A stretch of DNA of 64,000 bases from Candidatus Woesearchaeota archaeon B3_Woes (lineage in GTDB: Archaea; Nanobdellota; Nanobdellia; Woesearchaeales; B3-WOES), in contig NJBG01000001.1 of NCBI GenBank assembly GCA_005222965.1, positions 549,533 through 613,532 on the forward strand, written 5' to 3'. A program made the translations under genes and the position numbers. This document shows positions 11,167-52,131 of the stretch, piece by piece. The notes beneath the pieces were generated by a model. That model was not told the DNA's origin. It did not search any database and saw only the letters and a program-made list of their open reading frames with translations. Numbering within the stretch: position 1 is the stretch's first letter; every line of letters starts with the position of its first letter.

Positions 11167-11498
11167 TTTGTTTACCTCTCCTTTCTCCAATATTTATCTT
11201 TTCACCTGATGTTGTCAATTAAAACACCCCTTAAAGAATTCTTTATCGCTTTTAATAATTTGGACCATACTAAAAATATAAGAAATGAACTATTCTTTAA
11301 ATATTTTATTGTAATCCAGTAGTTATGTCGACGAGAAATTAAAAAGGTTACCCCTATCAAAAACTTAGAATATACCTATTTTAGAATAGTAATAGAATTT
11401 AAATATTTTTTGGTGATACAAAAGATATATTTGATTATGTTCTATTTACTGTAACAAATCTTTTAAATAGATGAATGATCTTAATATGGGGGAGTTGA

Positions 11499-18057: not shown

Positions 18058-18196
18058 TTCTACCCTCATTTTCAAGAAGTTTTCTTATGGCAAATTCAAA
18101 TATATGGGACTGATTTCTAAAAGAACCATCTCTAAGCTTATCTTTTAATTTAAGCATGATTTCTTCATCTATTGTAATACTAGTCTGATGTTTCAT
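18056..18196 (-). CDS. ribbon-helix-helix (CopG/Arc-like) protein, 46 aa
   Basis: Below the track length cutoff. Hand translation gives MKHQTSITIDEEIMLKLKDKLRDGSFRNQSHIFEFAIRKLLENEGRNE. The strand-helix-helix pattern is typical of RHH repressors and antitoxins. Confidence 0.65.
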
Positions 18197-29995: not shown

Positions 29996-32900
29996 ATCGA
30001 AATCAAAAAAAGAGGAATATTTACTTTAGTTCTAACTTTTTTATTAATTTTTTGCACAACTTTAACATTAGCAGCAAACGAGTTTGTAATTGACGCCGCA
30101 ACAGGAAACGTGGGAATCGGAACGAGTAGTCCAAGTGAGAAATTGCATATACAAGATGGGAATCTTATAATTAATAATACACCTTCACAACCAGCTATAC
30201 AAATTTATCATTCTGACGCTAATCAATTAAGAGCTGCGATTGATGGGTATGGGAGAGCGGTTTTTGGTTACACTTCTGCTCCAGGTACAGGTCTGGCGAC
30301 AGGTACTACAGTTTATATTCTTGCTGGTGGTGCTTCTACAGTTCCTCTCAAAATAAGTGGCTCTGGAAGCGGTCATACAGGGAATCTATTTCAAGTTTGG
30401 AGAGATGGGACTATCCAAAGATTTGTAATACAAGCAGACGGAAACGTAGGAATTGGAACTAGTAGTCCTGGTCAGAAGTTGGATGTAGTAGGGAATATAC
30501 GTTTAAATAACGGAAATTATCTTCAAATAAATGATAGTTCTGGATATGAGAGGGTAAAGCTTACAAGAGCTGCGTTAGAATTTTATGAATCTGTTGGAAC
30601 TATCTCAAACACTTTTACTAACAGCCACATGAAACTTGGGAATTTAGGGTATGGCTCTCTTGCTACTTTTTTACAAAGTTCAGATAATGTAGTTAGGATT
30701 TGGGCAAATGGAGCGCTTTCTGTTGGGCAGTCTCTTATAAACAATACTTCTCCAGGAACAGGTGACCTTATTGTTGCAGGCAAAGTAGGAATCGGGACAA
30801 GTAGTCCTTCTTATCCCTTAGATGTTAATGGAACTATAAAAACAAATGGTGAAATTAGAATGGCAGAGCCTTCTATAATCAGATTAGGAACTGCAGGTTT
30901 AATCTGGGAGTCCGGGGCGAATTTGATAATACAAGAAGTAGGCAGGAACTTCTTTCTGGGAACAACAACAGAAAACGAACTGCAATTTAAAACAAACAAC
31001 ACTGCACGAATAAGTATTATGTCTGATGGTAAAGTAGGAATCGGAACAACAACCCCCTCACAAAAATTAACAGTCATCGGAACAGTAAACGCAACAAACT
31101 TTGTAGGAGACGGCTCAGGCTTAACAGGAGTAGGAGGCGGAGGAGGCACAGGAATATGGAACCGCTCTGGAACAAACGTATTTCTAAACAATAGTGGCGA
31201 TAAAGTAGGAATCGGGACGAGTAGTCCTTCAAACTCCTTGCAAATAGGAAACGCAATCTTTTTTAACGCAACGTCTGGAAATGTCGGTCTAGGTGAAGCA
31301 CCATTATCAAGCATTCGTATAAATGTACAAGGTAATCGAGTAATGAGATTTGAGAATGCAGCATTAGATGGATTTGAACTTGCTCAAATAAATACAAAAA
31401 CCTGGGGATTTAATCAATTATCTGGTGGACATACTTTTCAAATTCAAGCACATGCAAAGGTAAATAGTGATTTAACTGTTGACACAGACACACTTTTTGT
31501 TGATGCGAGCGAAAATGCAGTAGGAATCGGAACGGACTCTCCAGAAAGTGCATTACATATAATTGATAATCCTTCTGCCCCTGGAACAGCAAAATTAATT
31601 CTTGATAATACAGGAGGTTCCACAAATGATGAAGATAAAATAGAATTTAGGCACGGCGATTATGAACAAGCATATATCAAGACGATTCTAAATGTAGGAT
31701 GGCCTACAGACCTTGCTTTTGGCACAGCTACAGGCATGGGAAGTGGTTTAGATGAACGAATGAGAATTAAAAGCACTGGAAATGTAGGAATCAATACAAC
31801 AACACCATTAACAGCATTAGAAGTAGTAGGAACAATAACAGCAACAAACTTTGTAGGTGACGGCTCTGGCTTAACAGGTGTTGGTGGTAGTGGAGGCACA
31901 GGAATATGGAACCGCTCTGGAACAAACGTATTTCTAAACAATACTGGTGATAATGTAGGAATTGGAACAAGTAGTCCAAATGAATTACTTACAGTCAGTA
32001 ATAGTAATATTCTTCAAGAAGGAGGTGGAGGAATTTATGCTGTTCAAACTGTTGGAGGTTCTGATGTAAGATTTCAATATAACAAAGCAGGAGGAAATGC
32101 TTATTTAAGATTGATGGATGTTTCTAATAATACTGATTTTGAGTTTAATACAAATGGTGATTCTTGGTTGAATGGTGGGAATGTAGGAATTGGAACAGAT
32201 AGTCCAACAGCAGAACTGACAATTAAAAATTCTGCTGATAATACAGATATGTTAAGTTTAGAAAATGCTGCGGGAACAAGAGTGGCTAATTTTGGAACAG
32301 ATGTAAGTGGAGATGGTGTATTAATTGTGAGGGATTCTTCTGGAAATGTTAAACATTATTTAGATGGTGATACAAGCACAGATACTTATTTTAATGCAGG
32401 TAACGTAGGAATTGGGACAAATAGTCCTCTTTCTAAATTACAAATTGGTGATGGTTCTGGTACTGCGTGGACTAGCACTTCTTATCCTGCATTATGGATT
32501 TATGGATATGATAACGAAGCAGCTGTTGAAGGGTTTAGAGTTCAAGATGAAAATGATAATATTGATTTCAGATTAAAAAGTGTAGGGGATGGAGGAACAA
32601 CAGGGGCTACTGCTTATTTTAGGGGAAATGTGGGAATAGGGACGAGTAGTCCTGCAACATTATTACATACAAATTCGTCAGGGCAGAATTATTTGAAAGT
32701 TGAGACTACTGGCGCTTCTTCACAAGCTGCCCTACAATTAAAAACAGGCACCGCAAATGCCGACTGGATTACGTATATTCCCGAAAGTTCTACTGATTTG
32801 AGATTTTATCGTGGTGCAGATAGAATGGTATTGGATGCCTCAGGAAATCTTCAAATAGATGGTGACCTAACAACAAGCAGCCTAGCAAGTTGTGATACAA

Positions 32901-34213
32901 TTGATACAGATTCAAATGGACTTTTATCTTGTGGAACAGATGCATACTCAGCAAACACATGGAGAGGAATTGATGACTCCCCTGTAAATGGTGTTACTAC
33001 TGAATCAATATCCTCCAATTGGGCTTATGACCACGATGCAGCTTCAAGTGCACACCATGTAAAAACAGTAAACACAGACACCCAAGACTTGGGCACAAGC
33101 GGTACTACAATAACTTTAACAAATAGCCCTGCTGTTACAGCACCATATGCAACCTATTCTGGAAATACAAATTCATGTAATAAAGATGCAACATGTGAAA
33201 CAGGAAATATCCTAACAGGGGCAAATGGCTATTTGTACTTGGGTGGAACAGATATGTTCTTGCAGGACAACAGCGGTAACCTAGTCGTAAGTTCCTCTAG
33301 CACCGCCTCTTATAAATATGATTCTACCAACAATGGTGTTGGATTTTTTCAGATTGCTTCAGGAACTGATACAGTACTGAAGATTGACAATGCTGGAAAA
33401 GTCGGCATCGGCACAACAAGCCCAGCATCAAAATTAAGTGTTGGTGGCACTGGTAGTTCTAATTATGCTATATCTGGGCAAGGCGCGTTATATGGCGTTT
33501 TTGGCGCAACAGCAACCAATGGTGGAGCTGGTGTTTATGGTTACGCTAGTTCCGCTGCTACTTCTTATGGTCTCAGGGGCCATGCTACCAATGGTTATGG
33601 TGTATATGCATCTGGCTCTGTGGGTGCAGGATATATGTCAGGCAATCTTTATGTATCTGGGGTTTGCAGTGGTGGTGATTCTTGCAACCAAGATATTGCA
33701 GAAAAATGGGCGTCAGAAAAAGCATTAAAACATATCCATTGTGGTGAAGATAGATTTGATTATACAAATGAAATTATTCCAGATGACATGAAAGAGGATA
33801 ACCATCAATACAAATGCATATTAGACTCTTCCTTTGAACTAGAATTTGAACAAGGAGATGTTATTTGTTTTGATAAAGCTATTGATTCTGTTACTGTTAT
33901 AAGATATTGTGATAAATCCTATGACAAAACAGCACTATCAACACTAAGTTATCATGCAACAATGACTATTGGAGCAGATTATTATCCTTATCCGATTGCT
34001 TTAACAGGTAATATTCCAGTAAAGGTTATTTGTGACAACCCTATAGAAGTAGGTGACCCTTTAGTAACATCAAACAAACAAGGTTATGCAATGAAATTGG
34101 ATATTTCAGATATCACAACATTTAAAGAATTTCAGGAAAGAAATAATGCAATCTTTGCAAAAGCCCTGGAACCTTGTGATTCCGGAAAAAAACTAATTAG
34201 GGCTTGGATTTAA
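29996..34213 (+). CDS. giant secreted repeat protein (13x GNVGIGTxSP motif, tail-fibre-like) with distinct C-terminal domain
   Basis: The track ORF starts at GTG 30110, but the frame is open from 29996. The extension encodes a textbook signal peptide, IEIKKRGIFTLVLTFLLIFCTTLTLAANEF. The motif G(N/K)VGIGT(S/T)SPxxxLx(V/I) recurs 13 times. The C-terminal ~200 aa (CNQDIAEKW...) are non-repetitive. Confidence 0.85.
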   Translation: MEIKKRGIFTLVLTFLLIFCTTLTLAANEFVIDAATGNVGIGTSSPSEKLHIQDGNLIINNTPSQPAIQIYHSDANQLRAAIDGYGRAVFGYTSAPGTGLATGTTVYILAGGASTVPLKISGSGSGHTGNLFQVWRDGTIQRFVIQADGNVGIGTSSPGQKLDVVGNIRLNNGNYLQINDSSGYERVKLTRAALEFYESVGTISNTFTNSHMKLGNLGYGSLATFLQSSDNVVRIWANGALSVGQSLINNTSPGTGDLIVAGKVGIGTSSPSYPLDVNGTIKTNGEIRMAEPSIIRLGTAGLIWESGANLIIQEVGRNFFLGTTTENELQFKTNNTARISIMSDGKVGIGTTTPSQKLTVIGTVNATNFVGDGSGLTGVGGGGGTGIWNRSGTNVFLNNSGDKVGIGTSSPSNSLQIGNAIFFNATSGNVGLGEAPLSSIRINVQGNRVMRFENAALDGFELAQINTKTWGFNQLSGGHTFQIQAHAKVNSDLTVDTDTLFVDASENAVGIGTDSPESALHIIDNPSAPGTAKLILDNTGGSTNDEDKIEFRHGDYEQAYIKTILNVGWPTDLAFGTATGMGSGLDERMRIKSTGNVGINTTTPLTALEVVGTITATNFVGDGSGLTGVGGSGGTGIWNRSGTNVFLNNTGDNVGIGTSSPNELLTVSNSNILQEGGGGIYAVQTVGGSDVRFQYNKAGGNAYLRLMDVSNNTDFEFNTNGDSWLNGGNVGIGTDSPTAELTIKNSADNTDMLSLENAAGTRVANFGTDVSGDGVLIVRDSSGNVKHYLDGDTSTDTYFNAGNVGIGTNSPLSKLQIGDGSGTAWTSTSYPALWIYGYDNEAAVEGFRVQDENDNIDFRLKSVGDGGTTGATAYFRGNVGIGTSSPATLLHTNSSGQNYLKVETTGASSQAALQLKTGTANADWITYIPESSTDLRFYRGADRMVLDASGNLQIDGDLTTSSLASCDTIDTDSNGLLSCGTDAYSANTWRGIDDSPVNGVTTESISSNWAYDHDAASSAHHVKTVNTDTQDLGTSGTTITLTNSPAVTAPYATYSGNTNSCNKDATCETGNILTGANGYLYLGGTDMFLQDNSGNLVVSSSSTASYKYDSTNNGVGFFQIASGTDTVLKIDNAGKVGIGTTSPASKLSVGGTGSSNYAISGQGALYGVFGATATNGGAGVYGYASSAATSYGLRGHATNGYGVYASGSVGAGYMSGNLYVSGVCSGGDSCNQDIAEKWASEKALKHIHCGEDRFDYTNEIIPDDMKEDNHQYKCILDSSFELEFEQGDVICFDKAIDSVTVIRYCDKSYDKTALSTLSYHATMTIGADYYPYPIALTGNIPVKVICDNPIEVGDPLVTSNKQGYAMKLDISDITTFKEFQERNNAIFAKALEPCDSGKKLIRAWI
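31031..31230 (+). repeat. intragenic duplication, copy 1
   Basis: Near-identical to 31781-31980, an offset of exactly 750 nt. This includes a 52-nt exact match, ggaggcacaggaatatggaaccgctctggaacaaacgtatttctaaacaata. Confidence 0.85.
31781..31980 (+). repeat. intragenic duplication, copy 2
   Basis: See copy 1. The protein segments are VGDGSGLTGVGG(G/S)GGTGIWNRSGTNVFLNN(S/T)GD(K/N)VGIGTSSP. Confidence 0.85.
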
Positions 34214-34227
34214 AAACATCTTTGAAA

Positions 34228-34444
34228 CAAGAACCCTACCAACAAGGCAACTCATACATGTGGTGTGATATATTTAATCAAACTTAAACTAAACAACATA
34301 CCTTTAATTTAATTAACAAAGCCCCTGAAACCCCCCAATCCACCCATCTCATCCCCAACAACCAAAAATTCTTAGTAAAATCAGGTTGTTAAATTACTAG
34401 TAATATTAGATTGTTTTTTTAGTAGAATTATGTTGATAAAACAA
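34228..34444 (+). repeat. cassette-boundary repeat, copy A (long form, left arm + triple-iteron core)
   Basis: It starts 15 nt after the giant-protein stop. It shares the ~100-bp left arm (CAACTCATACATGTGGTGTGATAT...CCTGAAACCCCCCAATCC) with copy C and the ~110-bp core with copies B and C. TAGTA sub-repeats start at 34373, 34398 and 34420. Confidence 0.85.
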
Positions 34445-34599
34445 TTTATAATAGAAAACACAAATAATTGAGCAAAATAGTTGTGTTTTCCAGATATCAT
34501 AGCGGATTTATTGATAAATTATTTTAGTCTGCTATTATACATTTAAAAAACCAATAATTTTAAATATACTAAAACTATCTAAAGTTATAACAGAACAAG

Positions 34600-34812
34600 A
34601 TGAAATTTAGAATAATTATGGAACAAGACGAAGATGGTATTTTTGTAGTTGAATGTCCATCATTACCTGGATGTGTTTCTCAGGGAAAATCAAGAGCAGA
34701 AGCCGTAAAAAACATCAAAGATGCTATGAAAGGTTATGTCCAAAGCTTAAAAAAACATAATGAAGCAATACCCCCTTCTATAAGGGAAGATACAATTGAA
34801 ATAAATGCCTAA
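34600..34812 (+). CDS. hicB: HicB-family antitoxin (UPF0150)
   Basis: EQDEDGIFVVECPSLPGCVSQGKSRAEAVKNIKDAMKGYVQSL is the typical HicB N-terminal fold signature. There is an 8-nt overlap with hicA. Confidence 0.8.
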   Translation: MKFRIIMEQDEDGIFVVECPSLPGCVSQGKSRAEAVKNIKDAMKGYVQSLKKHNEAIPPSIREDTIEINA

Positions 34813-35032
34813 ACTACCTGTTATTTCTGGATTGAAAGCTGTAAAAGCGCTTTCTAAATTAGGATATAGGATTGACCACCAAACAGGTTCTCATTTAATT
34901 CTTAGACACGAAAAAGAACCTCATAGAAGACTAACTATTCCCAATCACAAAGAATTATCCAAAGGAACGTTAAGAGCAATAATAAGACAAGCAGGTTTAA
35001 CAAGAGAAGAATTTTTAAGATTAGTAAGATAA
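34805..35032 (+). CDS. hicA: HicA-family mRNA interferase toxin
   Basis: LKAVKALSKLGYRIDHQTGSHLILRHEKEPHRRLTIPNHKELSKGTLRAIIRQAGL matches the HicA/YcfA pattern, including the GSH motif. Confidence 0.8.
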   Translation: MPKLPVISGLKAVKALSKLGYRIDHQTGSHLILRHEKEPHRRLTIPNHKELSKGTLRAIIRQAGLTREEFLRLVR

Positions 35033-35044
35033 ATTCTATCTACT

Positions 35045-35155
35045 CAATTCACCCATCTCAGCCAATCAACATACAACTTCTTAGTAAAATCAGGTTGCCA
35101 AATTACTAGTAATATTAGATTGTTTTTTTAGTAGAATTATGTTGCTAAAACAAAA
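35045..35155 (+). repeat. cassette-boundary repeat, copy B (core only)
   Basis: It starts 13 nt after the hicA-1 stop. The core is TTCACCCATCTCAGCCAATCAACATACAACTTCTTAGTAAAATCAGGTTGCCAAATTACTAGTAATATTAGATTGTTTTTTTAGTAGAATTATGTTGCTAAAACAA. TAGTA sub-repeats start at 35082, 35107 and 35129. Confidence 0.85.
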
Positions 35156-35240
35156 ACATATAAATATAATGTGCTGAAGATTAGACCAAGATTTCTTTTT
35201 AAAAAGAGAAACATAAGAAATGTCAAATATTATTCTATGC

Positions 35241-35265
35241 TTCGGAAATTTGAAAAATTTCCGAA
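35241..35265. promoter_or_regulatory. 11-bp perfect inverted repeat TTCGGAAATTT-gaa-AAATTTCCGAA (putative operator of hicBA-2)
   Basis: Read directly from the sequence. It ends 35 nt upstream of the hicB-2 ATG. Confidence 0.5.
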
Positions 35266-35299
35266 AGATTTAAATAATTCCAAAGATTAAAAAAGTATC

Positions 35300-35503
35300 A
35301 TGACAGGCTTTAATATGATTATAGAAAAAGGAGAAGATGGATATTTGATATCTGAAGTAGTTGAGCTTCCAGGATGTCATACACAAGCAAAAAATATGAA
35401 TGAACTTCTTGAAAGAACAAAAGAAGCTATTTCTCTTTATTTAACAGAACAGGGAAGCGAATTTAAAGATAAGTTTATTGGTGTACAAAAATTAGAGGTT
35501 TAG
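35300..35503 (+). CDS. hicB: HicB-family antitoxin (second copy)
   Basis: IIEKGEDGYLISEVVELPGCHTQAKNMNELLERTKEAISLYL. The stop abuts the hicA-2 ATG. Confidence 0.8.
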   Translation: MTGFNMIIEKGEDGYLISEVVELPGCHTQAKNMNELLERTKEAISLYLTEQGSEFKDKFIGVQKLEV

Positions 35504-35731
35504 ATGTCAAAACTTCCTTTAATAAGTGCTAACGAATTAATTAAGATTCTTGTAAAAATGGGATTTAAGATTATGAGGCAATCTGGAAGCCATATATTTC
35601 TCAAACATATAGATGGAAGAACAACTGTTGTTCCAAATCATCCCGGAGAAAAAATTGATAGAGGATTATTAAATAAAATCCTTAGAAAAGATGTACAGAT
35701 TTCTCGAGAACAGTTTTTGAAATTATTATAA
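35504..35731 (+). CDS. hicA: HicA-family toxin (second copy)
   Basis: ANELIKILVKMGFKIMRQSGSHIFLKHIDGRTTVVPNHPGEKIDRGLLNKILR. Confidence 0.8.
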   Translation: MSKLPLISANELIKILVKMGFKIMRQSGSHIFLKHIDGRTTVVPNHPGEKIDRGLLNKILRKDVQISREQFLKLL

Positions 35732-35856
35732 CTTATTTTTAAATTACAAAGAGATAAAACTCGCATTTATTTTTATTACATCAGTGTATTATAAAAATAT
35801 GTTTTTTGTTCCATCACTATAGAAACATTTATATATAAGTAAGATAATCTTATTTT

Positions 35857-36108
35857 ATGGAAATAACAAAACTGAGCACAAAAGGACAAATTGTAATACC
35901 TGAATCTATGAGAAAAGGTTTAGAAGTTGGTAGCGCATTTAAAGTAATTAAAAAAGGAGAACTTATAATTTTAAAAGAAGTAGAAGGACTCACTAAGGAA
36001 GAAATGGAAGAAATGAAAGAACTTGATAAGATTTGGAAAGGTATAGATGATGGTAAGGGAGTAACCATGAATAAAAAAGAGTTTCTTAAGGAACTAGAAT
36101 CTTGGTAA
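35857..36108 (+). CDS. AbrB/SpoVT-type antitoxin
   Basis: MEITKLSTKGQIVIPESMRKGLEV is a swapped-hairpin AbrB/MazE signature. The toxin gene follows after 4 nt. Confidence 0.75.
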   Translation: MEITKLSTKGQIVIPESMRKGLEVGSAFKVIKKGELIILKEVEGLTKEEMEEMKELDKIWKGIDDGKGVTMNKKEFLKELESW

Positions 36109-36112
36109 GAGA

Positions 36113-36370
36113 ATGTCTGACGAAATAAAGAAAATAACTCGTTCTCCAAAATTTATCAAACAGACCAAACAACTAGATGAATTCAGTCTCAAAAAGCTAG
36201 GGAAACAAATATTAAAAATCTTAGAAAATCCCAATGTTGGAAAACCTTTGAAATATAAAAGAGGTGAACGGTCACTCTATATTAAACCATTCAGATTAGT
36301 TTATGCTGTAAGAGAAGATGAGGTTATTTTATTAAAATTTGACCATAGAAAAAGAGTTTATAGAGATTAA
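36113..36370 (+). CDS. relE: RelE/ParE-family toxin
   Basis: LENPNVGKPLKYKRGERSLYIKPFRLVYAVREDEVILLKFDHRKRVY matches the RelE/StbE pattern. Confidence 0.75.
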   Translation: MSDEIKKITRSPKFIKQTKQLDEFSLKKLGKQILKILENPNVGKPLKYKRGERSLYIKPFRLVYAVREDEVILLKFDHRKRVYRD

Positions 36371-36424
36371 GTAATGTGAATAAATTATGTATGAATAATA
36401 TATACTCCAAAACCAACTTATCAA

Positions 36425-36654
36425 ACAACAACTCTGCTCGCAAGACAACTCATACACGTGGTGTGATATGCTTAATCAAATTTAAGATAAACAACACACC
36501 TTTTAGTTTTTTAGTTTAATTAACAAAGGTCCTGAAACCCCCCAATCCACCCATCTCATCCAATCAACATACAAATTCTTAGTAAAATAATGTTGCTAAA
36601 CTACTAGTAATATTTTGTTGTTTTTTTAGTAGAATTATGTTGCTAAAACAAAAA
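36425..36654 (+). repeat. cassette-boundary repeat, copy C (long form)
   Basis: It starts ~55 nt after the relE stop and ends 34 nt before the ATG of the Zn-ribbon/nuclease gene. It has both left arm and core. TAGTA sub-repeats start at 36580, 36605 and 36627, the same 25/22-bp spacing as in A and B. Confidence 0.85.
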
Positions 36655-36687
36655 GATTTAAATAACAAAAAAAAACAAATTTAATAT

Positions 36688-37788
36688 ATGCAACCAGAAA
36701 TTAACAAAATAAATTGTCCTAATTGTTCCTCAAAGAATCTTAAAAAATACGGTGTTCAAAAAAATAAAGCACAAAACTTACAAAAGTACCAGTGTAAAAT
36801 TTGTAAAAAAATATTTACATTAAAAGACCAGTCCAAAAACAAAACATATCCAATAAACATCATCCTTAATGCATTATCTTATTATAATTTAGGATACTCT
36901 CAAAACGATATTAATAAAATTCTTTCTAAGAAGTTTAAGCTAAAGCCCTCTCAAAAAACAATCTCTAACTGGATAAATGAATACAAAAACATCACAATAT
37001 TTAACAAACTAAGAAAAGAAGCATCAAAACTTTACACAAAAGAAGAAATAATAGAAAAACACACATTCTTACACAACAATTTACCTTATAAATTCCAAAT
37101 TCACAAAGCAAAACTAGATTTGTTATTCCAAAACAAATACAATAATAAATTCTCAAATCACTCAAAATTCCAAAAACCAATAAAACAATACCTGGAAAAA
37201 ATTCCAACAAAAAAATTTCCTCACCACATATTCAAAGAACACAAAGAAAAGAAAAGTTCAAATACATCAATTGCTCAAATTGATAATATTAAAAATAGAT
37301 CAGAACAAAGAGCATCACAATTAAAATTCTCACATCTTAAAATAACACACATCTCAAAAAATAACCTAGCCAACAAATTAGCATCATTGGCTCTCAATCT
37401 GGCAAAAAACAATAAACAAAGACATGAAGCAGTACAAACCTTCATGCTAATCAACGATTCAACAACAATAGCAGCAGAAGTCCCTATCTACTTAACAAAT
37501 GATGACATAACTTATTTTCTAAGCAGAAAATTCACTCTGCCATTAGAAAACCAACAAACCCCAATCACAGGGCACATAGACATATTACAAATTAGAAACA
37601 ATCTTATCCATATTCTAGATTATAAGCCAGACGCAGCTAAAACAAAACCCATAGAACAACTGACAATATATGCCTTAGCATTAGCATCAAAACTAAAATT
37701 AGATCTAAAATCATTTAAATGTGCGTGGTTTGATGAAAAGAACTACTATGAATTCTTTCCTTTGCGTGCTGTTTATGAAAAGCCATAA
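36688..37788 (+). CDS. Zn-ribbon + HTH (InsA/IS1595-like N-terminus) fused to RecB-family PD-(D/E)XK nuclease domain
   Basis: The N-terminus CPNCSSKNLKKYG...YQCKICKKIF gives CxxC-x19-CxxC, then SQKTISNWINEY. The C-terminus reads ITGHIDILQI (motif I D), LIHILDYKPDAAK (motif II DxK) and EQLTIYALAL (QxxxY). Confidence 0.6.
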   Translation: MQPEINKINCPNCSSKNLKKYGVQKNKAQNLQKYQCKICKKIFTLKDQSKNKTYPINIILNALSYYNLGYSQNDINKILSKKFKLKPSQKTISNWINEYKNITIFNKLRKEASKLYTKEEIIEKHTFLHNNLPYKFQIHKAKLDLLFQNKYNNKFSNHSKFQKPIKQYLEKIPTKKFPHHIFKEHKEKKSSNTSIAQIDNIKNRSEQRASQLKFSHLKITHISKNNLANKLASLALNLAKNNKQRHEAVQTFMLINDSTTIAAEVPIYLTNDDITYFLSRKFTLPLENQQTPITGHIDILQIRNNLIHILDYKPDAAKTKPIEQLTIYALALASKLKLDLKSFKCAWFDEKNYYEFFPLRAVYEKP

Positions 37789-37833: not shown

Positions 37834-38025
37834 ATGCCATCAACAATTCAATTAAGCAAGTGTACAAAAGAATTAGTTAGTTCCTTCGGTACTAAAGAAG
37901 ATACTTATGAGGATATAATTAAAAGGATATACAAACTTGCAGTTAAAGAACAGTTAAGAGAATTTCTCATGTCTTCTAAAAATACAGTAACACTGGAAGA
38001 AGCAAGAAAAATTATTAACAAGTAA
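37834..38025 (+). CDS. putative antitoxin (small, partner of RelE/ParE-like gene)
   Basis: 63 aa. The stop is 1 nt before the next ATG. An N-terminal strand plus helices gives an RHH-like impression only. Confidence 0.5.
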   Translation: MPSTIQLSKCTKELVSSFGTKEDTYEDIIKRIYKLAVKEQLREFLMSSKNTVTLEEARKIINK

Positions 38026-38026
38026 G

Positions 38027-38371
38027 ATGGCTAAGATAGAAATTCTAAAATCTCTTGTGCTTGAAATAAAGAAGAAATTCAGTAAAACAGAAGCAAATAA
38101 AATTCTTGATATTATCCATAGTTTAAAAAATAACCCTAGAAAAGGAAAACTTTTAGGAAATGTTGGTGGACTTGTAATTAAAGAACTAAAATACAAAAAT
38201 TTTCGTTTCTATTTTATCACAGATGGGTTTAAATTAAAATATTTTGATGAAGAAAACCTTGTAGATTTGCTTTTAAGGTTTGTTAGGATGTCTGATAAAA
38301 AACATCAACAAGAAACAATAGATAAAATCAAACATATTCTTAAAACAATAGGTACTGAAGAATTTAAATAG
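38027..38371 (+). CDS. RelE/ParE-like toxin
   Basis: IIHSLKNNPRKGKLLGNVGGLVIKELKYKNFRFYFITDG resembles the RelE/ParE core pattern. Confidence 0.5.
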   Translation: MAKIEILKSLVLEIKKKFSKTEANKILDIIHSLKNNPRKGKLLGNVGGLVIKELKYKNFRFYFITDGFKLKYFDEENLVDLLLRFVRMSDKKHQQETIDKIKHILKTIGTEEFK

Positions 38372-40488: not shown

Positions 40489-41571
40489 ATGAAAATAGCA
40501 ATATTCCATAATTATATGGATAACATAGGGGGTGCTGAAAAAGTGACCTTGACTCTTGCAGGGGAATTAGATGCTGACATAATCACAACAAATATCAATA
40601 GAAAAGCTATAGAAAATATGGGTTTCAAAAACATTAGAATAAAAAGCATTGGAAAAATTCCTATAAATGCTCCATTCAAACAACAGTTTGCGTTGTATAA
40701 GTTCAGAAAACTCGATCTAAAAGAAAAATATGATTTTTTTATCATAGATGGGGATTGGGCAATATCTGGAGCAGTCAAGAATAAACCAAATTTATGGTAT
40801 GTCCATTCACCTATAAGAGAGATATGGGATTTGTATGAATACACTAGACAACACAGTGTCCCTTTAATCCTAAGACCTATTTTTGATATTTGGGTAAAAT
40901 ACAATCGTTACCTTAACAGGAAGTATGTCAAACATGTTGACAAGATAACTTGCAACTCAAAGAACACCCAAAAAAGGGTTAAGAAATATCTGAATAGGGC
41001 TGCTGTTGTGATAAACCCGCCAATTGAGACTTCTAAATTTCATTATAAAAAGACAGGAGGTTACTGGTTAAGCGTTAATAGACTCATTACACATAAAAGA
41101 GCAGATATGCAAATAAAAGCTTTTGCAAAACTGCTTGATGAAAAACTAATCGTTGTTGGCTGTTATGAAAAATCAAGACATTTTACTGCATATGCAAATT
41201 ATATAAAAAAAATTAAGCCAAAGAACATTACTTTGCTAAATGGGATTGGTTCTAATCAATTGATAAATCTCTATGCTAATTGTAAGGGTTTTATTACAAC
41301 ATCCAAAGATGAAGATTTTGGAATGGCTCCTGTTGAAGCAATGGCTTCTGGAAAACCAGTTATTGCTCCAAATGAAGGGGGATATAAAGAAACCGTTGTT
41401 GATGGAGTTACTGGAAAGTTAATAGACGATATCAGTGTTGATAAATTAATCAAGTCTATCCAAGAAGTAAGCAAAAACCCTAAAAAATATAAAAATACTT
41501 GTTTAAAACAGGCAAAGAAATTTGATACAAAAATTTTCATTAAAAAAATAAAAGAACAGATGGCTACATAA
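40489..41571 (+). CDS. glycosyltransferase family 4
   Basis: EDFGMAPVEAMASGKPVIAPNEGG is the E-x7-E GT4 signature. Confidence 0.8.
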   Translation: MKIAIFHNYMDNIGGAEKVTLTLAGELDADIITTNINRKAIENMGFKNIRIKSIGKIPINAPFKQQFALYKFRKLDLKEKYDFFIIDGDWAISGAVKNKPNLWYVHSPIREIWDLYEYTRQHSVPLILRPIFDIWVKYNRYLNRKYVKHVDKITCNSKNTQKRVKKYLNRAAVVINPPIETSKFHYKKTGGYWLSVNRLITHKRADMQIKAFAKLLDEKLIVVGCYEKSRHFTAYANYIKKIKPKNITLLNGIGSNQLINLYANCKGFITTSKDEDFGMAPVEAMASGKPVIAPNEGGYKETVVDGVTGKLIDDISVDKLIKSIQEVSKNPKKYKNTCLKQAKKFDTKIFIKKIKEQMAT

Positions 41572-42826: not shown

Positions 42827-44101
42827 ATGAATAAAAATCCCAAGAAAAATTTAAGAATAGCCATCATACATGATGATTTTTCCTTGTGTGGTGGAGGAGA
42901 AAAATTAGTTGCAATACTTGCTAAAGGACTTTCTAAAAAAGGTATAGAAGTGGATATAATAACATATAATTTTACAGAAGAACCCAAAAAAATAATCCCA
43001 AAAGGGATTAAAATTAAAACCATTATCAATAAAAAATACCCCTTTCATGACCATAATGTAAGAAAGTATTTATTCTCCAAATTAAATTTAAAAAAAAAAT
43101 ATGATTTGTTTATCTTTAGTGGTTATTTCTGCTTGTATGCATCAAAGATAAACAAACCAAACATTCTTTATTGCCATAATGTTAGAAAACCATATCTGTC
43201 AACACAAAAAAGATTTGAAGAAAAACCAAACAAAAGACAAGTCCAAGCAAAATTAGATTTAATAGATAATTCATTCCTTGGAAAGAGTTGGACATTTTTA
43301 TATAAAATAAAAAATAAATTCATTAAGAAAAAAATCCCAAGAAAAATCTCAGAAAAAATAGAACTTATTCGTTTTTTATTTGCAATCTCCCCTCATCCAA
43401 TATTAATAAAATACGCCATAAAACCTCTCACAGAAGAAGAGGAAATCAGAAAGGAGATTAATTATATACAAAAAATTATAGTGAACAGCCTTACTATTAA
43501 AAAAGATGCTAAAGAGTATTATAAAAGAGAATCCATAATTATACACCCCCCTATTGAAACAAAAAAATTTCATTATAAAAAAAATAAAAATTTTTGGATT
43601 TCTATAAATAGAATTGATCCCCATAAAAGAGTAGAATTACAATTAAAAGCATTTTCTAAAATGCCTAATGAAAAACTTTATATTATTGGCCATATACAAA
43701 ATCAAAAATATTATGAATTTCTTAAAAAAATAAAACCCAATAATGTGAAATTCTTAGGAGTTATTAATGAAGATAAATTAATTAAAAAATTAAGTGAATG
43801 CAAGGGAATGGTATTCACAGCAAAAAAAGAGGATTTTGGAATGGCTCCTGTTGAAGCAATGGCTTCTGGTAAGCCAGTGATAGCTCCAAACGAAGGGGGG
43901 TGTAAAGAAACAATTATTAATGAAAAAACCGGAATATTAATAAATAATATAAATGAGGATAAAATAATAAGAGCAGTAGAGAAGATAAACAAGAATCCTG
44001 AGAAGTATAAAAATGCATGTTTGAGGCAAGCACGAAAATTTGATGTTGAAGTTTTTATTAAAAAAATGACAGAAGAAATAAGGGATTCTCTGGTTCAATA
44101 A
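42827..44101 (+). CDS. glycosyltransferase family 4 (paralog of 40489-41571)
   Basis: EDFGMAPVEAMASGKPVIAPNEGG is encoded by a stretch nearly identical in nucleotides to 41320-41390. Confidence 0.8.
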   Translation: MNKNPKKNLRIAIIHDDFSLCGGGEKLVAILAKGLSKKGIEVDIITYNFTEEPKKIIPKGIKIKTIINKKYPFHDHNVRKYLFSKLNLKKKYDLFIFSGYFCLYASKINKPNILYCHNVRKPYLSTQKRFEEKPNKRQVQAKLDLIDNSFLGKSWTFLYKIKNKFIKKKIPRKISEKIELIRFLFAISPHPILIKYAIKPLTEEEEIRKEINYIQKIIVNSLTIKKDAKEYYKRESIIIHPPIETKKFHYKKNKNFWISINRIDPHKRVELQLKAFSKMPNEKLYIIGHIQNQKYYEFLKKIKPNNVKFLGVINEDKLIKKLSECKGMVFTAKKEDFGMAPVEAMASGKPVIAPNEGGCKETIINEKTGILINNINEDKIIRAVEKINKNPEKYKNACLRQARKFDVEVFIKKMTEEIRDSLVQ

Positions 44102-48632: not shown

Positions 48633-49760
48633 TTATTTCTTTTCAATTCCCAAAATACTCAAATAAAACACATTAAAAATTATTTGTATACCTATTATTA
48701 AAATAGTTGATGCTAATATAACCCTTCCTGGCTGGAAAAACCCACTAAAACCAGTCAATAACCATCTTATAAAAATATTCCCACTAATCAATAAACCTAT
48801 TAAAAATATTAAACTACCAAAAAAAAGACCCTTTTCTAATGTTAAATATTGAATAAACCTTTCAATCAAAAGAGATTTTTCTTTTAAAACTGCAAATAAA
48901 TATATTTTAGCAAATAATGTCAAAAAAATTAATTGAAAACCCAAAATAGCCAATAAACTGCACAAGATTGCAGTATGGATACCTAATCTAAAATTATTGA
49001 TCATTATATCCCCTGTACTTAAAAAAAGAACCCCTAAAATCCCAACAAAAAATATTAAAAAACCAGGTATAAAAAATAAATAAGAAGGGGTATGTAATAA
49101 CATGAATCTTAGATGCTTCCACCCATCATTAAAACTACTTAATTTACTTTTTCCTATTCGTTTATAATAATTTATAAGGACCTCTTTAACCTTAATTTTT
49201 TGTTTTACTGCCTTCATCAACATTTCAGAAGCAAATTCCATTCCACCAGTATTTAGTTCAAGCTTTTCAAAAGCTGTTTTTTTAATAATCCTAAAACCAG
49301 AGTGAACATCCTTAATTTTTGCTTTAAAAAATAATCTAAAGATAAAAGAAAGCAAAGGATTACCAATTGTTCTATGTAACCAAGGCATGGCTTTTTTATG
49401 AAAATAAGTTCTTTTTCCAAGAACTAAATCATATTTTTTAGAATATTGGATTAACTTAGGCAATTCATACAAATCATAAGTATTATCACTATCAACCATT
49501 ATTATTCTATTACCTTTTGTTACAGAAAATCCTTTTAGATATGCATTTCCATAACCTTGTTTTGGTTCAACAACAACTTTAGCGCCAAGTTTTTTAGCAA
49601 TACTAGCAGAATTATCTTTACAACCATTATCAACAACTATTATTTCATAACTAACCTTTAATTGAGAAAAAACCTTTTTTGCTTTTTCTATACAAATTCC
49701 AATAGTTTTTTCTTCATTCAAACAAGGCAAAACCAAGCTAAATTCAATATCAACACCCAT
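48633..49760 (-). CDS. GT2 polyprenol-phosphate glycosyltransferase (DPM1/GtrB-like) with C-terminal TM helices
   Basis: SLVLPCLNEEKTIG, VVDNGCKDNS and MVDSDNTYD (DxD), followed by 4 C-terminal TM segments. Confidence 0.8.
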   Translation of the reverse strand: MGVDIEFSLVLPCLNEEKTIGICIEKAKKVFSQLKVSYEIIVVDNGCKDNSASIAKKLGAKVVVEPKQGYGNAYLKGFSVTKGNRIIMVDSDNTYDLYELPKLIQYSKKYDLVLGKRTYFHKKAMPWLHRTIGNPLLSFIFRLFFKAKIKDVHSGFRIIKKTAFEKLELNTGGMEFASEMLMKAVKQKIKVKEVLINYYKRIGKSKLSSFNDGWKHLRFMLLHTPSYLFFIPGFLIFFVGILGVLFLSTGDIMINNFRLGIHTAILCSLLAILGFQLIFLTLFAKIYLFAVLKEKSLLIERFIQYLTLEKGLFFGSLIFLIGLLISGNIFIRWLLTGFSGFFQPGRVILASTILIIGIQIIFNVFYLSILGIEKK

Positions 49761-49825
49761 AAAAAGAATATTATCAAATTATTATTTAAATTTATGGGAT
49801 AATCACATTTACCAGAAGGATAAAT

Positions 49826-50709: not shown

Positions 50710-50805
50710 TTATTCTCTTATCTTTTTTATAAATGCTTTTGTATCAAACTTCTTTGATTCCATCAAACAAGGCAAAACCAAACTAAATTCAATATCCCCC
50801 CTCAT
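50710..50805 (-). pseudogene. chimeric gene remnant: GT2 5' end joined to GT4 3' end
   Basis: The 31-codon ORF is MRGDIEFSLVLPCLMESKKFDTKAFIKKIRE. Residues 1-14 match the GT2 start (MGVDIEFSLVLPCLNEE, 49760). Residues 17-31 match the GT4 C-terminus (KKFDTKIFIKKIKE, 41515-41560). The upstream 40 nt also duplicate the GT2 promoter region (49761-49800). Confidence 0.7.
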
Positions 50806-50881
50806 AAAAAGAACATTATAAAACCATTATTTAAATCTATGTAATCCCTATTATGAACAACAAAACATTTAAATATAATCC

Positions 50882-51636: not shown

Positions 51637-51870
51637 ATGGTAAAAGCGATAGTTAATATTGAAGAAAGTGCAAACAGAATCTTAAACATAGTGAAAGCTA
51701 AAGAAAATTTAAGAGATAAGAGTGCTGCTATTAATCTGATTTTGAATTTATACGGTAAAGAAATGTTAGAACCAGAACTTAGACCAGAATTTATTAAAGA
51801 GCTTTTAGAAGCTCAAAAAGAAGAAACTGCAAAAGTAAAAGATTGGGACAAACATTTTGGTCTAAATTAA
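51637..51870 (+). CDS. putative antitoxin (DUF2683-like, from memory)
   Basis: MVKAIVNIEESANRILNIVKAKENLRDKSAAINLILNLY. It lies directly upstream of a RelE-like gene. Confidence 0.55.
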   Translation: MVKAIVNIEESANRILNIVKAKENLRDKSAAINLILNLYGKEMLEPELRPEFIKELLEAQKEETAKVKDWDKHFGLN

Positions 51871-51879
51871 TTCTAAAAA

Positions 51880-52131
51880 ATGTATAATCTTGAAATAAGA
51901 AAAGAGGTTGAAAAAGTTCTTAAAAAACTCTCTAAAAAAGATAAGGTAAGTTCAATTTATATTAGTAAAAAAATAAAGGAGATAAAAGAAAACCCTTATC
52001 GTTTTAAACCACTTCAAAATTTTTGGAGAATACATATAGGTAACTATGTTCTTATTTATTCTATAAATGAAAAAACCAAAACAGTTATAATTGAAAAATA
52101 CAAACACCATAAAGAAGTCTATAAAATTTAA
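51880..52131 (+). CDS. relE: RelE/ParE-family toxin
   Basis: IKEIKENPYRFKPLQNFWRIHIGNYVLIYSINEKTKTVIIEKYKHHKEVY. Confidence 0.7.
   Translation: MYNLEIRKEVEKVLKKLSKKDKVSSIYISKKIKEIKENPYRFKPLQNFWRIHIGNYVLIYSINEKTKTVIIEKYKHHKEVYKI

What the first reader, a model, noticed from the sequence alone, without database searches (positions are those of the whole stretch)
34228..36654. Conserved 110-230 bp boundary element with a triple iteron punctuates a toxin-antitoxin cassette array
Three same-orientation copies of one intergenic element sit just past the stop codon of one module and upstream of the next. Copy A is 34228-34444, after the giant surface protein. Copy B is 35045-35155, after hicA-1. 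Copy C is 36425-36654, after relE and 34 nt before the Zn-ribbon/nuclease gene. All three share a ~110-bp core: CACCCATCTCA-CC-AACA-ACAA-TTCTTAGTAAAAT-GTTGC-AAA-TACTAGTAATATT-TTGTTTTTTTAGTAGAATTATGTTGCTAAAACAA. A and C also share a ~100-bp left arm with a C-rich end (CCTGAAACCCCCCAATCC).

Inside the core are three direct sub-repeats of consensus TAGTA-n2-AT-n-A-n2-TTG(C/T). Their starts are spaced 25 and 22 bp apart in every copy (A 34373/34398/34420, B 35082/35107/35129, C 36580/36605/36627). That is roughly two helical turns, as expected for a protein-binding array.

The downstream hicB genes have their own TATA boxes and their own unrelated palindromes 100-150 nt further on. The element is therefore not simply a shared promoter. 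A conserved site at every cassette junction recalls integron attC sites or other recombination, partition or iteron sites. However, neither an integrase nor an attC-like core is visible.

Inference: this is a recognition array for a site-specific DNA-binding or recombination protein that assembles or mobilises small cassettes.
Basis: partly seen in the sequence, partly recalled or inferred. Interest (0 to 1): 0.8.

Follow-up and report, generated by a model that had tools for sequence, protein, structure and literature searches.

The report
Duplicated gene operator brackets toxin-antitoxin cassettes
The repeated element is the conserved promoter-upstream region, with three protein-binding repeats, of a zinc-ribbon nuclease gene found in DPANN archaea, and extra copies of it bracket toxin-antitoxin cassettes here and in about 20 related genomes, which points to a recurrent cassette-gathering process whose mechanism is not yet known.

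Summary
Three same-strand copies exist (nhmmer E 1e-33 to 1e-35), and the triple sub-repeat has 25/22-bp spacing in each copy.

Copy C is not a free-standing boundary element. It is the native upstream region of the 366-aa gene at 36688-37788, which encodes an IS1-InsA-like Zn-ribbon/HTH fused to a RecB/Cas4-like nuclease. Orthologous loci from dozens of Woesearchaeota/Nanoarchaeota lineages show the same layout: a C-rich box, 3-4 direct iterons, a TTTAAATA box, and the ATG 22-25 nt further on. The iteron sequence class tracks residues 86-90 at the start of the protein's predicted recognition helix.

Copies A and B are duplicates that bracket inserted TA cassettes. Close relatives differ in cassette content at these copies, and A and C are reciprocal mosaics. 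Thirty-two further distal copies occur in 20 related loci, all on the gene's strand.

No hairpin, ncRNA, MITE, integrase or attC features were found. Other local sequences, namely the 3' ends of two genes, are duplicated in the same way. Homology-driven accretion at a hot spot is therefore as likely as a dedicated recombination site.

Best reading: an autoregulatory operator array reused as a recombination anchor. An integron-like role for the nuclease remains possible (about 0.2).

The parts
30110..34213 (+). Giant surface-protein gene (1367 aa, GNVGIGT-type repeats). It is the conserved upstream neighbour of the locus.
   Evidence: ORF. A GNVGIG-repeat giant ORF lies upstream on the same strand in 21 of 42 related loci that have at least 700 nt of upstream sequence.
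34228..34335 (+). Copy A, left arm. This is the sequence downstream of the giant gene and is duplicated in copy C.
   Evidence: arm profile E 1e-36 and 5e-44; no other copy in the window
34336..34444 (+). Copy A, core. C-rich box CACCCATCTCA at 34341-34351; iterons at 34373-34389, 34398-34414 and 34420-34436; degenerate TATA-like TTTATAATA at 34445-34453.
   Evidence: Mosaic: its left part is like the single element of L006, and its right part is like copy B.
34600..35032 (+). hicB-1 / hicA-1 cassette
   Evidence: Pfam HicB_lk_antitox E 8e-10; HicA_toxin E 1.6e-19
35045..35166 (+). Copy B, core only. Box at 35050-35060; iterons at 35082-35098, 35107-35123 and 35129-35145; TATA-like TATAAATA at 35159-35166.
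35300..35731 (+). hicB-2 / hicA-2 cassette
   Evidence: Pfam
35821..36370 (+). AbrB/MazE-like + ParE/RelE cassette with its own promoter. A discrete unit shared with relative L013.
   Evidence: Pfam. Window 35821-36362 is 93.5% identical to L013 438-979, and the flanks on both sides do not align.
36425..36654 (+). Copy C, the native copy. Left arm 36425-36542; core 36543-36654 with the box at 36548-36558 and iterons at 36580-36596, 36605-36621 and 36627-36643.
   Evidence: It is orthologous to the upstream region of the same gene in L006/L014, L013, L007, L010 and many others.
36657..36664 (+). TTTAAATA box, the archaeal TATA-type promoter element of the nuclease gene. It ends 23 nt before the ATG, which implies a leaderless or near-leaderless mRNA.
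   Evidence: Sequence. In about 20 orthologous loci the distance from the end of the element profile to the ATG is 22-25 nt. Promoter function is inferred, not measured.
36688..37788 (+). Gene for a 366-aa protein. The N-terminus is an IS1-InsA-like Zn-ribbon + HTH (residues ~10-130). The C-terminus is a RecB/AddAB/Cas4-like PD-(D/E)XK nuclease (GHID...LDYK...QLxxY).
   Evidence: Pfam PDDEXK_1. NCBIfam IS1 transposase N-terminal part, E 2.5e-7, and IS1/IS1595 Zn domain. Invariant residues. AF2 model pLDDT 85. Weak Foldseek hits to RecB/AddA/Cas4 nuclease domains. More than 1750 homologues, with source names only from Woesearchaeota/Nanoarchaeota.
37834..38371 (+). Two small genes downstream (63 aa with a weak DUF7557 hit; 114 aa). 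Probably a further TA-like pair of the same island.
   Evidence: weak hit only. Downstream neighbours of the orthologues are rich in MNT, HEPN, UPF0175 and PIN families.

Best explanation
The ~110-bp core is the cis-regulatory region of the Zn-ribbon/HTH-nuclease gene at 36688-37788. It consists of a C-rich box, three direct 17-bp iterons and, in the native copy C, a TTTAAATA promoter box 23 nt before the ATG.

The iterons are operator sites. They are most likely bound by the gene's own InsA-like N-terminal domain, giving autoregulation. This step is inferred.

The interval between the giant surface-protein gene and this gene is a hot spot where small TA cassettes accumulate in DPANN archaea. 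Cassettes enter and leave by recombination that uses the conserved local sequences as anchors. Here the anchor is the whole intergenic region including the iterons. In other lineages it is the 3' end of the giant gene or of the nuclease gene. This leaves direct duplicates on both sides of each insert.

Copies A and B are such duplicates. A and C are the reciprocal hybrid products of a crossover between iteron 1 and iteron 2. The duplicated iterons are still under the same sequence constraint, so they probably still bind the protein.

Shown: the orthology of the element, the copies at cassette borders, the mosaic pattern and the cassette polymorphism. Inferred: who binds the iterons, promoter activity, and whether recombination is purely homology-driven.
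For: 1. The core lies directly upstream of the orthologous gene in L006 (90% protein identity; nhmmer E 1.6e-30), L007 (73%; 7.5e-9) and L010 (68%; 3.5e-10). It is also visible in most of the 80 further loci.
2. Iteron positions relative to the ATG are conserved (about -108/-83/-61, spacing 25/22). The TATA-to-ATG distance is 22-25 nt.
3. Among 366 alignment columns, the one that best separates TAGTA-type loci (13) from AGCC-type loci (9) is residue 88, S versus P with no exceptions. It lies at the N-cap of predicted helix 89-99. Other iteron classes have their own 86-90 motifs. The two classes are intermixed when loci are compared by the C-terminal domain: for 8 of 22 loci the nearest neighbour is of the other class.
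4. Relatives differ at the copies. L006 has giant gene - element - gene. L013 has element - AbrB/ParE - element - gene. The window has three copies and three cassettes.
5. Mosaic pattern: the spacer and iteron 1 of A match L006; iteron 2 of A matches B; the spacer of C matches B; iteron 2 and the TATA flank of C match L006.
6. There are 32 distal copies in 20 non-redundant loci. All 81 profile hits are on the gene's strand, and 23 of 30 distal copies are followed by a same-strand ORF.
7. Substitutions among A, B and C avoid columns conserved in 15 orthologous elements (4/48 versus 20/64; p = 0.005).
8. Anchors without iterons are duplicated in the same way in L060, L040, L027, L057 and L081. 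All 114 repeat pairs of at least 60 nt in 35 loci are direct.
9. The neighbours on both sides are dominated by TA families.
Against: - No binding or transcript data exist.
- The protein-iteron covariation could partly reflect physical linkage, because the element abuts the 5' end of the gene.
- Most distal copies end after iteron 3 and lack the TATA box, so they are not simply duplicated promoters.
- None of the 32 distal copies carries more than 7 nt of the nuclease ORF. This clustering of breakpoints between iteron 3 and the ATG is tighter than random decay would predict. It fits either selection or a targeted break.
- In L036 most distal copies are of a different iteron class (TAGTA) from the resident gene copy and protein (AGCC/VPQR). 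These copies are only about 60-70% identical to the resident one, which is a poor substrate for plain homologous recombination.
- How the first duplicate in a lineage arises is unexplained.
Confidence: 0.6

Rival explanations
1. The iteron element is a dedicated recombination site, and the adjacent Zn-ribbon/HTH-nuclease is the enzyme that starts cassette capture. The protein would bind the iterons and cut between iteron 3 and the start codon. Repair would then insert cassettes that carry an element of their own. This would be an integron-like platform without a tyrosine recombinase.
For: - The gene and the element are always together, and distal copies cluster within about 10 kb of the gene.
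- hicBA homologues elsewhere in three other genomes have neither the element nor the gene within 10 kb.
- Copies A and C are attL/attR-like hybrids.
- The right-hand ends of the copies fall in a ~50-nt zone between iteron 3 and ATG+7.
- In L021, L037, L075 and L087 a cassette sits exactly between the element and the gene's ATG.
- Foreign-class elements sit next to cassettes in L036 and L065.
- The N-terminal domain is of a transposase type, the nuclease catalytic motifs are invariant, and the head of iteron 2 is a 10-bp palindrome, TTACTAGTAA.
Against: - The ends of the copies are not at one nucleotide.
- L060 and L040 have regular arrays whose repeated unit is the iteron-free 3' end of the giant gene. 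L027, L057, L065 and L081 repeat the 3' end of the nuclease gene.
- The AbrB/ParE cassette shared with L013 has non-homologous flanks between the cassette and the element on both sides.
- A PD-(D/E)XK nuclease alone cannot carry out strand exchange.
- No activity data exist.
Confidence: 0.2
2. The element is a portable regulatory or insulator module (terminator T-run plus upstream activating or repressing sites). It is recognised by some other DPANN transcription factor and travels with TA cassettes as their own upstream region. On this reading the nuclease gene is just one more member of that regulon.
For: - Distal copies usually lie 44-170 nt upstream of a same-strand ORF.
- The element contains a T7 run that could terminate archaeal transcription (established knowledge of oligo-T termination in archaea).
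- The duplicated iterons stay under constraint.
Against: - Three hicBA homologues in other genomic contexts lack the element.
- The other TA pair in the window, at 51637-52128, lacks it.
- The iteron class tracks the recognition-helix motif of the adjacent gene's own product.
- The cassettes have their own promoters and palindromic operators.
Confidence: 0.1
3. The element is a MITE or IS end, a structured non-coding RNA, an attC-type folded recombination site, or a replication/partition iteron array.
For: It is a repeated intergenic sequence with internal direct repeats. Iterons next to the gene of their binding protein are typical of plasmid origins.
Against: - No terminal inverted repeats or target-site duplications were found, and all copies are in one orientation next to one gene.
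- Rfam gave nothing at gathering threshold, and one sub-threshold hit (E 0.56, inside hicA-2) at E <= 1, none in any copy of the element.
- Single-sequence RNA and DNA folds are no better than shuffles, except copy C on the + strand (z = -2.4).
- RNAalifold on 16 orthologues gives 0 to -0.2 kcal/mol on the two strands.
- No relative of the gene occurs on viral contigs.
- GC skew follows gene strand and shows no turn at the locus.
- No Rep, Orc or Par gene was detected among the locus genes or the roughly 40 other window proteins scanned; one 469-aa ORF (16666-18075) had no Pfam hit, and several window ORFs were not scanned.
Confidence: 0.05

Closest known systems
Integrons (IntI, attI, attC cassette arrays), including the archaeal integrons of Ghaly et al. 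2022 (PMC9668308)
   Same: Same-orientation arrays of small, often TA-encoding cassettes, punctuated by a recurring ~100-bp element. The arrays sit next to one conserved gene whose product is a candidate DNA-binding or DNA-cutting protein. Cassette content differs between relatives at the repeats.
   Different: There is no tyrosine recombinase. The element has no imperfect-palindrome fold. It consists of direct iterons and doubles as the promoter-upstream region of the conserved gene. The junctions are not at one point, and iteron-free anchors are also used.
Tandem accretion of elements at the 3' end of a conserved gene (SCC elements at rlmH/orfX; islands in tandem at tRNA genes; integrase-less CIME-type elements)
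   Same: Direct repeats of the target sequence flank each inserted unit. Arrays grow at one conserved chromosomal site. The conserved gene or promoter is reconstituted after each event. This comparison rests on my own knowledge; SCC at rlmH appeared only in a title.
   Different: Here the repeats are 60-230 bp long and 75-95% identical, not a 15-20-bp core. No Ccr or Int recombinase is present. The units are only 0.6-1.5 kb.
TA 'islets' at chromosomal hot spots between core genes (e.g. Photorhabdus, PMC13617665)
   Same: TA systems cluster in small spots with high turnover and without recognisable mobile-element genes. Integration by homologous recombination at conserved flanks is proposed.
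   Different: That model predicts replacement without flanking duplicates. Here each cassette is bracketed by long direct repeats of the flank.
IS1 InsA, and iteron/Rep autoregulation in plasmids
   Same: An N-terminal Zn-ribbon + HTH of the InsA type. A protein that binds repeats placed at its own promoter and thereby represses it (established knowledge for InsA at the IS1 inverted repeat and for iteron-binding Rep proteins).
   Different: The catalytic domain is a RecB/Cas4-like PD-(D/E)XK nuclease, not a DDE transposase or a Rep. The repeats are direct and lie on one side only. The gene is chromosomal, widely conserved, and has a conserved neighbour.
Orphan toxin/immunity arrays downstream of cdiA and rhs genes
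   Same: A giant surface-protein gene is followed by same-strand arrays of small gene pairs, each associated with a repeated fragment of the giant gene (L060, L040).
   Different: The repeated fragment is the extreme 3' end including the stop codon. It is not an in-frame handle upstream of a variable toxin tip. The cassettes are ordinary type II TA pairs with their own promoters.

Membership tests
Integron | Adjacent intI gene (tyrosine recombinase) | tested here: not met
   The adjacent conserved gene is a Zn-ribbon/HTH + PD-(D/E)XK protein. No recombinase or transposase family appeared in about 40 window proteins scanned, nor among the top 25 families of the 254 neighbour ORFs. A few window ORFs were not scanned.
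Integron | attC sites: imperfect inverted repeats that fold into a bulged hairpin as single-stranded DNA | tested here: not met
   ssDNA folds of copy C gave z = -0.56 (+ strand) and +1.18 (- strand). RNA-parameter folds of the three cores on both strands showed no shared structure. The consensus fold of 16 orthologues was ~0 kcal/mol on both strands.
Integron | Same-orientation cassette array whose content varies between relatives at the repeat borders | tested here: met
   Window versus L013 versus L006. Arrays in L019, L036, L065, L072 and L073.
MITE / IS end | Terminal inverted repeats and target-site duplication; dispersed copies in both orientations | tested here: not met
   No terminal inverted repeats were found. 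There are three copies in 64 kb, all upstream of one gene. All 81 profile hits in the related loci are on one strand.
Structured non-coding RNA (Rfam family or new) | Match to a covariance model, or a conserved structure with covariation | tested here: not met
   Rfam gathering threshold: 0 hits in the window. At E <= 1 in 34100-36800 there was only a chance snoRNA hit inside hicA-2. Alifold found no consensus structure.
Autoregulatory operator array of an archaeal promoter | Binding-site repeats at a fixed distance from a BRE/TATA box, conserved upstream of orthologous genes | tested here: met
   (TATA-to-ATG distance 22-25 nt; iterons at about -108/-83/-61).
Autoregulatory operator array of an archaeal promoter | The encoded protein binds the repeats and changes transcription | not testable with these tools
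   Indirect support only: the recognition-helix motif at residues 86-90 tracks the iteron class. Physical linkage of the element and the gene's 5' end is an alternative cause.
IS1-family transposase | InsA-type Zn-ribbon/HTH N-terminus | tested here: met
   NCBIfam transpos_IS1, residues 10-130 aligned to model positions 1-109, E 2.5e-7 but far below the cut-off (30.9 versus 100 bits). The IS1_IS1595_Zn domain scores 28.7 bits against a cut-off of 28.
IS1-family transposase | DDE catalytic domain (InsB) and terminal inverted repeats | tested here: not met
   The C-terminal domain is a PD-(D/E)XK nuclease. No inverted repeats flank the gene.
RecB/AddAB/Cas4-type PD-(D/E)XK nuclease domain | The motifs hhD, (D/E)xK and QxxxY in a restriction-endonuclease-like fold | tested here: met
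   GHID(298), LD311-Y-K313 and Q324-L-x-x-Y328 are invariant or nearly so in 33 sequences. Pfam PDDEXK_1 E 6.6e-5. Foldseek best hits are the RecB, AddA, AdnA and Cas4 nuclease domains, but they are weak (E 0.01-0.1). There is no Cas4-type cysteine cluster.

The most novel reading that the evidence does not exclude
Woesearchaeota/Nanoarchaeota carry a previously undescribed cassette-gathering platform. A conserved chromosomal gene encodes an InsA-like DNA-binding domain fused to a RecB/Cas4-like nuclease. The protein recognises the iteron array at its own promoter and makes breaks just downstream of it. Repair of these breaks captures, duplicates and exchanges small TA or defence cassettes that carry iteron elements of their own. 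In function this would be an integron analogue built from a nuclease and host recombination rather than from a tyrosine recombinase, placed next to the giant surface-protein gene.
Probability: 0.2. Interest if true: 0.9.

Novelty: new variant of a known kind. Interest (0 to 1): 0.65.

Why it matters
DPANN archaea have tiny genomes, and how they acquire and shuffle accessory genes is poorly understood. This locus combines three things:
- a highly conserved but uncharacterised gene with more than 1750 homologues;
- a cis element whose sequence changes in step with that gene's DNA-binding domain;
- a recurrent array of TA cassettes bracketed by long direct repeats, next to the giant surface-protein gene.

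Even on the conservative reading, this gives a concrete and testable operator-regulator pair in uncultivated archaea. It also gives a defined chromosomal hot spot where cassette gain and loss can be followed in population metagenomes.

If the nuclease drives the process, it would be a new kind of gene-capture system. It could also serve as a programmable pairing of binding site and nuclease.

Tried and rejected
1. Exact 20-mer TTTTTAGTAGAATTATGTTG. In genome contigs it gave five single hits in unrelated bacteria, all weak to the profile, so they are chance matches. In viral contigs it gave none. The source genome is not among the species representatives.
2. Exact-protein look-ups for the nuclease, HicA-1, HicA-2 and ParE found nothing on record.
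3. A first control seemed to show the element is not special. Seven of 42 element regions had a second copy, against 35 of 136 other intergenic regions. On inspection, some of these 'controls' were diverged copies of the same element (L065, L036). Others were gene-end anchors. The control as designed is therefore confounded.
4. GC skew as an origin test was uninformative because it follows gene strand.
5. PADLOC gave no match for the nuclease or the neighbours tested.
6. A PDB sequence search gave no meaningful hit.
7. Five literature searches found no description of this gene family or locus. The library is limited, so absence is not proof.
8. An assembly artefact as the source of the repeats was considered and rejected. 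The copies are 75-95% identical rather than identical, and the same structures recur in independent samples (L073/L078, L081/L082, L036/L044/L045).


Full report
**1. The observation**

The window is a 30%-GC archaeal chromosome segment. It encodes Hef, PCNA, ScpB, GyrA, AspRS and GatAB. Homologues of its proteins carry names only from Woesearchaeota/Nanoarchaeota, and the source contig is about 1.0 Mb long.

Three same-strand copies of one intergenic element exist. The cores are at 34336-34444 (A), 35045-35155 (B) and 36543-36654 (C), at 81-90% identity. A and C also share a ~110-bp left arm. A profile of the core finds only these three copies in 64 kb, at E 1e-33 to 1e-35.

Each core holds three direct 17-bp sub-repeats, TAGTA-RWAT-N4-TTG-Y, with starts 25 and 22 bp apart. 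The genes between the copies are hicBA, a second hicBA, and an AbrB/MazE-like gene with ParE/RelE. The gene after copy C encodes a 366-aa Zn-ribbon + PD-(D/E)XK protein. No copy separates hicBA-2 from the AbrB/ParE pair.

**2. What copy C is**

The 366-aa protein has more than 1750 homologues at 50-90% identity. I fetched orthologous loci by exact-protein look-up (L006-L012) and by a protein-pattern scan of metagenome contigs (L013-L092).

In these loci the same element lies directly upstream of the orthologous gene. nhmmer E-values are 1.6e-30 for L006, 7.5e-9 for L007 and 3.5e-10 for L010. The layout is conserved across dozens of lineages:
- a C-rich, G-poor box (...CTCAGCC...);
- 3-4 direct iterons;
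- a TTTAAATA box;
- the ATG.

The profile end (the TATA box) lies 22-25 nt from the ATG in about 20 loci. In the window's clade the iterons start near -108, -83 and -61. Other clades have 25+33 spacing, or four iterons with the last one overlapping the TATA box.

Copy C is therefore the native promoter-upstream region of this gene. From what is known of archaeal promoters, a TATA box about 24 nt before the ATG implies a leaderless mRNA. That point is inferred.

**3. Who binds the iterons**

The protein's N-terminal ~130 residues resemble the InsA part of IS1 transposases: a Zn-ribbon plus an HTH. The C-terminal domain has the invariant GHID / LDYK / QLxxY motifs of RecB/AddAB/Cas4-type nucleases. 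It gives weak Foldseek matches to those domains (model pLDDT 85).

The iteron sequence differs by lineage, and all iterons of a locus change together. Observed classes include TAGTA-AAATC-..GTTGC, CAGCC-AAATC.., TTTAAAAATCCGTTAC, TGTAATATCAAGTGCAT and TTACAAAATCAGGCATA.

I compared 13 TAGTA-class loci with 9 AGCC-class loci. The most discriminating of the 366 protein columns is residue 88: Ser in all TAGTA loci and Pro in all AGCC loci. It lies at the N-cap of predicted helix 89-99. Seventeen of the top 25 columns fall in the N-terminal 130 residues. Each further iteron class has its own motif at residues 86-90: PSQK, (V/I)PQ(K/R), ATLP, IS(A/T)K or VP(L/I)T.

The two classes are interleaved when loci are compared by the C-terminal domain. 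Eight of 22 nearest neighbours are of the other class, with up to 89% identity. The association is therefore not simply a deep clade split.

Caveat: the element abuts the gene's 5' end, so linkage during recombination could produce part of this signal.

**4. What copies A and B are**

Close relatives differ exactly at the copies:
- L006/L014 (90% protein identity): surface-protein gene - element - gene, with no cassette.
- L013 (91%): element - AbrB/ParE - element - gene. This is the same cassette as window 35821-36362, at 93.5% identity, with non-homologous flanks.
- The window: three copies and three cassettes.

The copies are mosaics:
- The spacer after the C-box and iteron 1 of A match the single element of L006.
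- Iteron 2 of A matches B.
- The spacer of C matches B.
- Iteron 2 and the TATA flank of C match L006.

This is the pattern of reciprocal recombination within the element, between iteron 1 and iteron 2. It fits either insertion into an L006-like site or excision that leaves an L006-like site.

Substitutions among A, B and C avoid the columns conserved in 15 orthologous elements (4/48 versus 20/64, Fisher p = 0.005). The duplicated iterons therefore appear to remain under constraint.

**5. The phenomenon recurs**

An iterated nhmmer profile of the element gives 81 hits in the fetched loci, all on the gene's strand. Thirty-two of them are distal copies, in 20 non-redundant loci. Examples:
- L019: at least 12 iterons after the giant gene, plus further copies between PIN-type cassettes.
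- L036: six clusters in a 5.8-kb island, around its cassettes (hicBA twice, HEPN-MNT, RHH-RelE), four of them just upstream of a cassette.
- L065: six copies 3-9 kb downstream of the gene.
- L072: a PIN cassette. L073: MNT-HEPN. L091: HicB.

In L021, L037, L075 and L087 a cassette sits between the element and the gene's ATG, forming one operon without a second copy. In L021 and L075 it reads as HepT/DUF86-like from the sequence alone; no domain search was run on it.

Most distal copies end just after iteron 3 and lack the TATA box. None includes more than 7 nt of the nuclease ORF.

ORFs within 3 kb on both sides of the gene are dominated by TA families: MNT, HEPN/HepT, PIN, ParE, DUF2283, UPF0175 and HicAB.

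A giant GNVGIG-repeat surface-protein gene is the upstream same-strand neighbour in 21 of 42 loci.

Three hicA homologues taken without regard to this gene (L093, L096, L099) have neither the element nor the nuclease gene within 10 kb. The window's other TA pair, at 51637-52128, also lacks the element.

**6. Why a dedicated recombination site is not shown**

- No conserved fold exists on either strand, and there is no significant Rfam match.
- No integrase or transposase was found.
- The right-hand ends of the copies vary from about -37 to +7 relative to the ATG.
- Iteron-free sequences are duplicated in the same way:
  - L060 has 8-9 same-strand copies (75-90% identity) of the last ~150 nt of the giant gene, including its stop codon. 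They separate two-gene cassettes on both sides of the nuclease gene; at least five are followed directly by a TATA box. L060 also has a truncated pseudogene copy and a 3' fragment of the nuclease gene.
  - L040 repeats the 3' end of the giant gene.
  - L027, L054, L057, L065, L081 and L088 repeat the 3' end of the nuclease gene after downstream cassettes.
- All 114 repeat pairs of at least 60 nt in 35 loci are direct.

The common denominator is that conserved local sequences serve as anchors for tandem accretion. This could run on homologous recombination of circular excision products. It could also arise from repeated integration of homologous locus fragments from relatives, followed by decay.

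Two points argue against a purely passive process. The breakpoints cluster tightly just downstream of the iterons. And L036 contains elements of a foreign iteron class.

**7. Verdict**

The element is an iteron-type operator region of a conserved DPANN Zn-ribbon/HTH-nuclease gene, probably autoregulatory. It is reused as the repeated border of TA cassettes at a recurrent hot spot.

It is not an attC site, a MITE or a non-coding RNA. Whether the nuclease actively drives cassette capture is open; I put that at about 0.2. I found no published description of the gene family or the locus. The nearest known analogues are integrons, tandem island accretion at gene 3' ends, and TA islets at hot spots.

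Noticed in passing
L060:2788-12272: There are eight to nine same-strand copies (75-90% identity) of the last ~150 nt of the giant surface-protein gene (...SSAAGSVIIQLG, stop). They separate two-gene cassettes, and at least five of them are followed directly by a TATA box. The copies lie on both sides of the nuclease gene and carry no iterons. L060 also has a truncated nuclease pseudogene (10590-11447, with an in-frame stop) and a 3' fragment (9442-9504).
   Followed up: partly
L019:6366-6800: Directly after the giant gene lies an expanded array of at least 12 iterons (CAAATCAGGTGCAT, period about 30-35 nt). The last iteron of the proximal set ends only 5 nt before the annotated ATG, and no TATA box lies in between.
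   Followed up: partly
window 34320-34360 and 36525-36565; the same region in L007, L019, L027 and L036: The left part of the element is strongly C-rich and G-poor on the gene strand, with CCAGCC/CTCAGCC motifs, in a 30%-GC genome. The opposite strand has several G-runs (for example in L019 and L007) that might form G-quadruplexes. Its function is unknown.
   Followed up: no
window 36603-36612 (also 34396-34405 and 35105-35114): The head of iteron 2 is a perfect 10-bp palindrome, TTACTAGTAA, conserved across much of the TAGTA clade. It lies inside the interval in which the A/C mosaic crossover must have occurred.
   Followed up: partly
window 49708-49796 and 50753-50841: An 89-nt sequence is repeated at 84% identity at the start of, or upstream of, two neighbouring minus-strand genes (a family-2 glycosyltransferase and an APS kinase fusion). 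It is unrelated to the iteron element.
   Followed up: no
window 51637-52128: A solitary DUF2683 + ParE toxin-antitoxin pair lies 14 kb from the island and has no copy of the element.
   Followed up: yes
window 30110-34213: The giant surface protein has internal 750-nt and 58-nt repeat families (GNVGIGT motifs). The same kind of protein is the conserved upstream neighbour of the nuclease gene in half of the related loci, which suggests a functional or structural link between the two genes.
   Followed up: partly
L036:2640-2670: The tandem triplet GTTACTAGTAGTTACTAGTAGTTACTAGTAA lies at the junction between AGCC-class and TAGTA-class iterons within one element. It looks like slippage at the palindromic iteron head.
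   Followed up: no
L093:1-8758: An 8054-aa protein gene lies on the minus strand, about 1 kb from an unrelated hicBA pair (one 180-aa gene between them), in a Woesearchaeota MAG. Giant genes and TA pairs also co-occur outside the nuclease locus.
   Followed up: no
window 41299-41450 and 43817-43968; 40695-40756 and 43066-43127: Paralogous group-1 glycosyltransferase genes account for the other long direct repeats in the window. This is ordinary gene duplication.
   Followed up: yes
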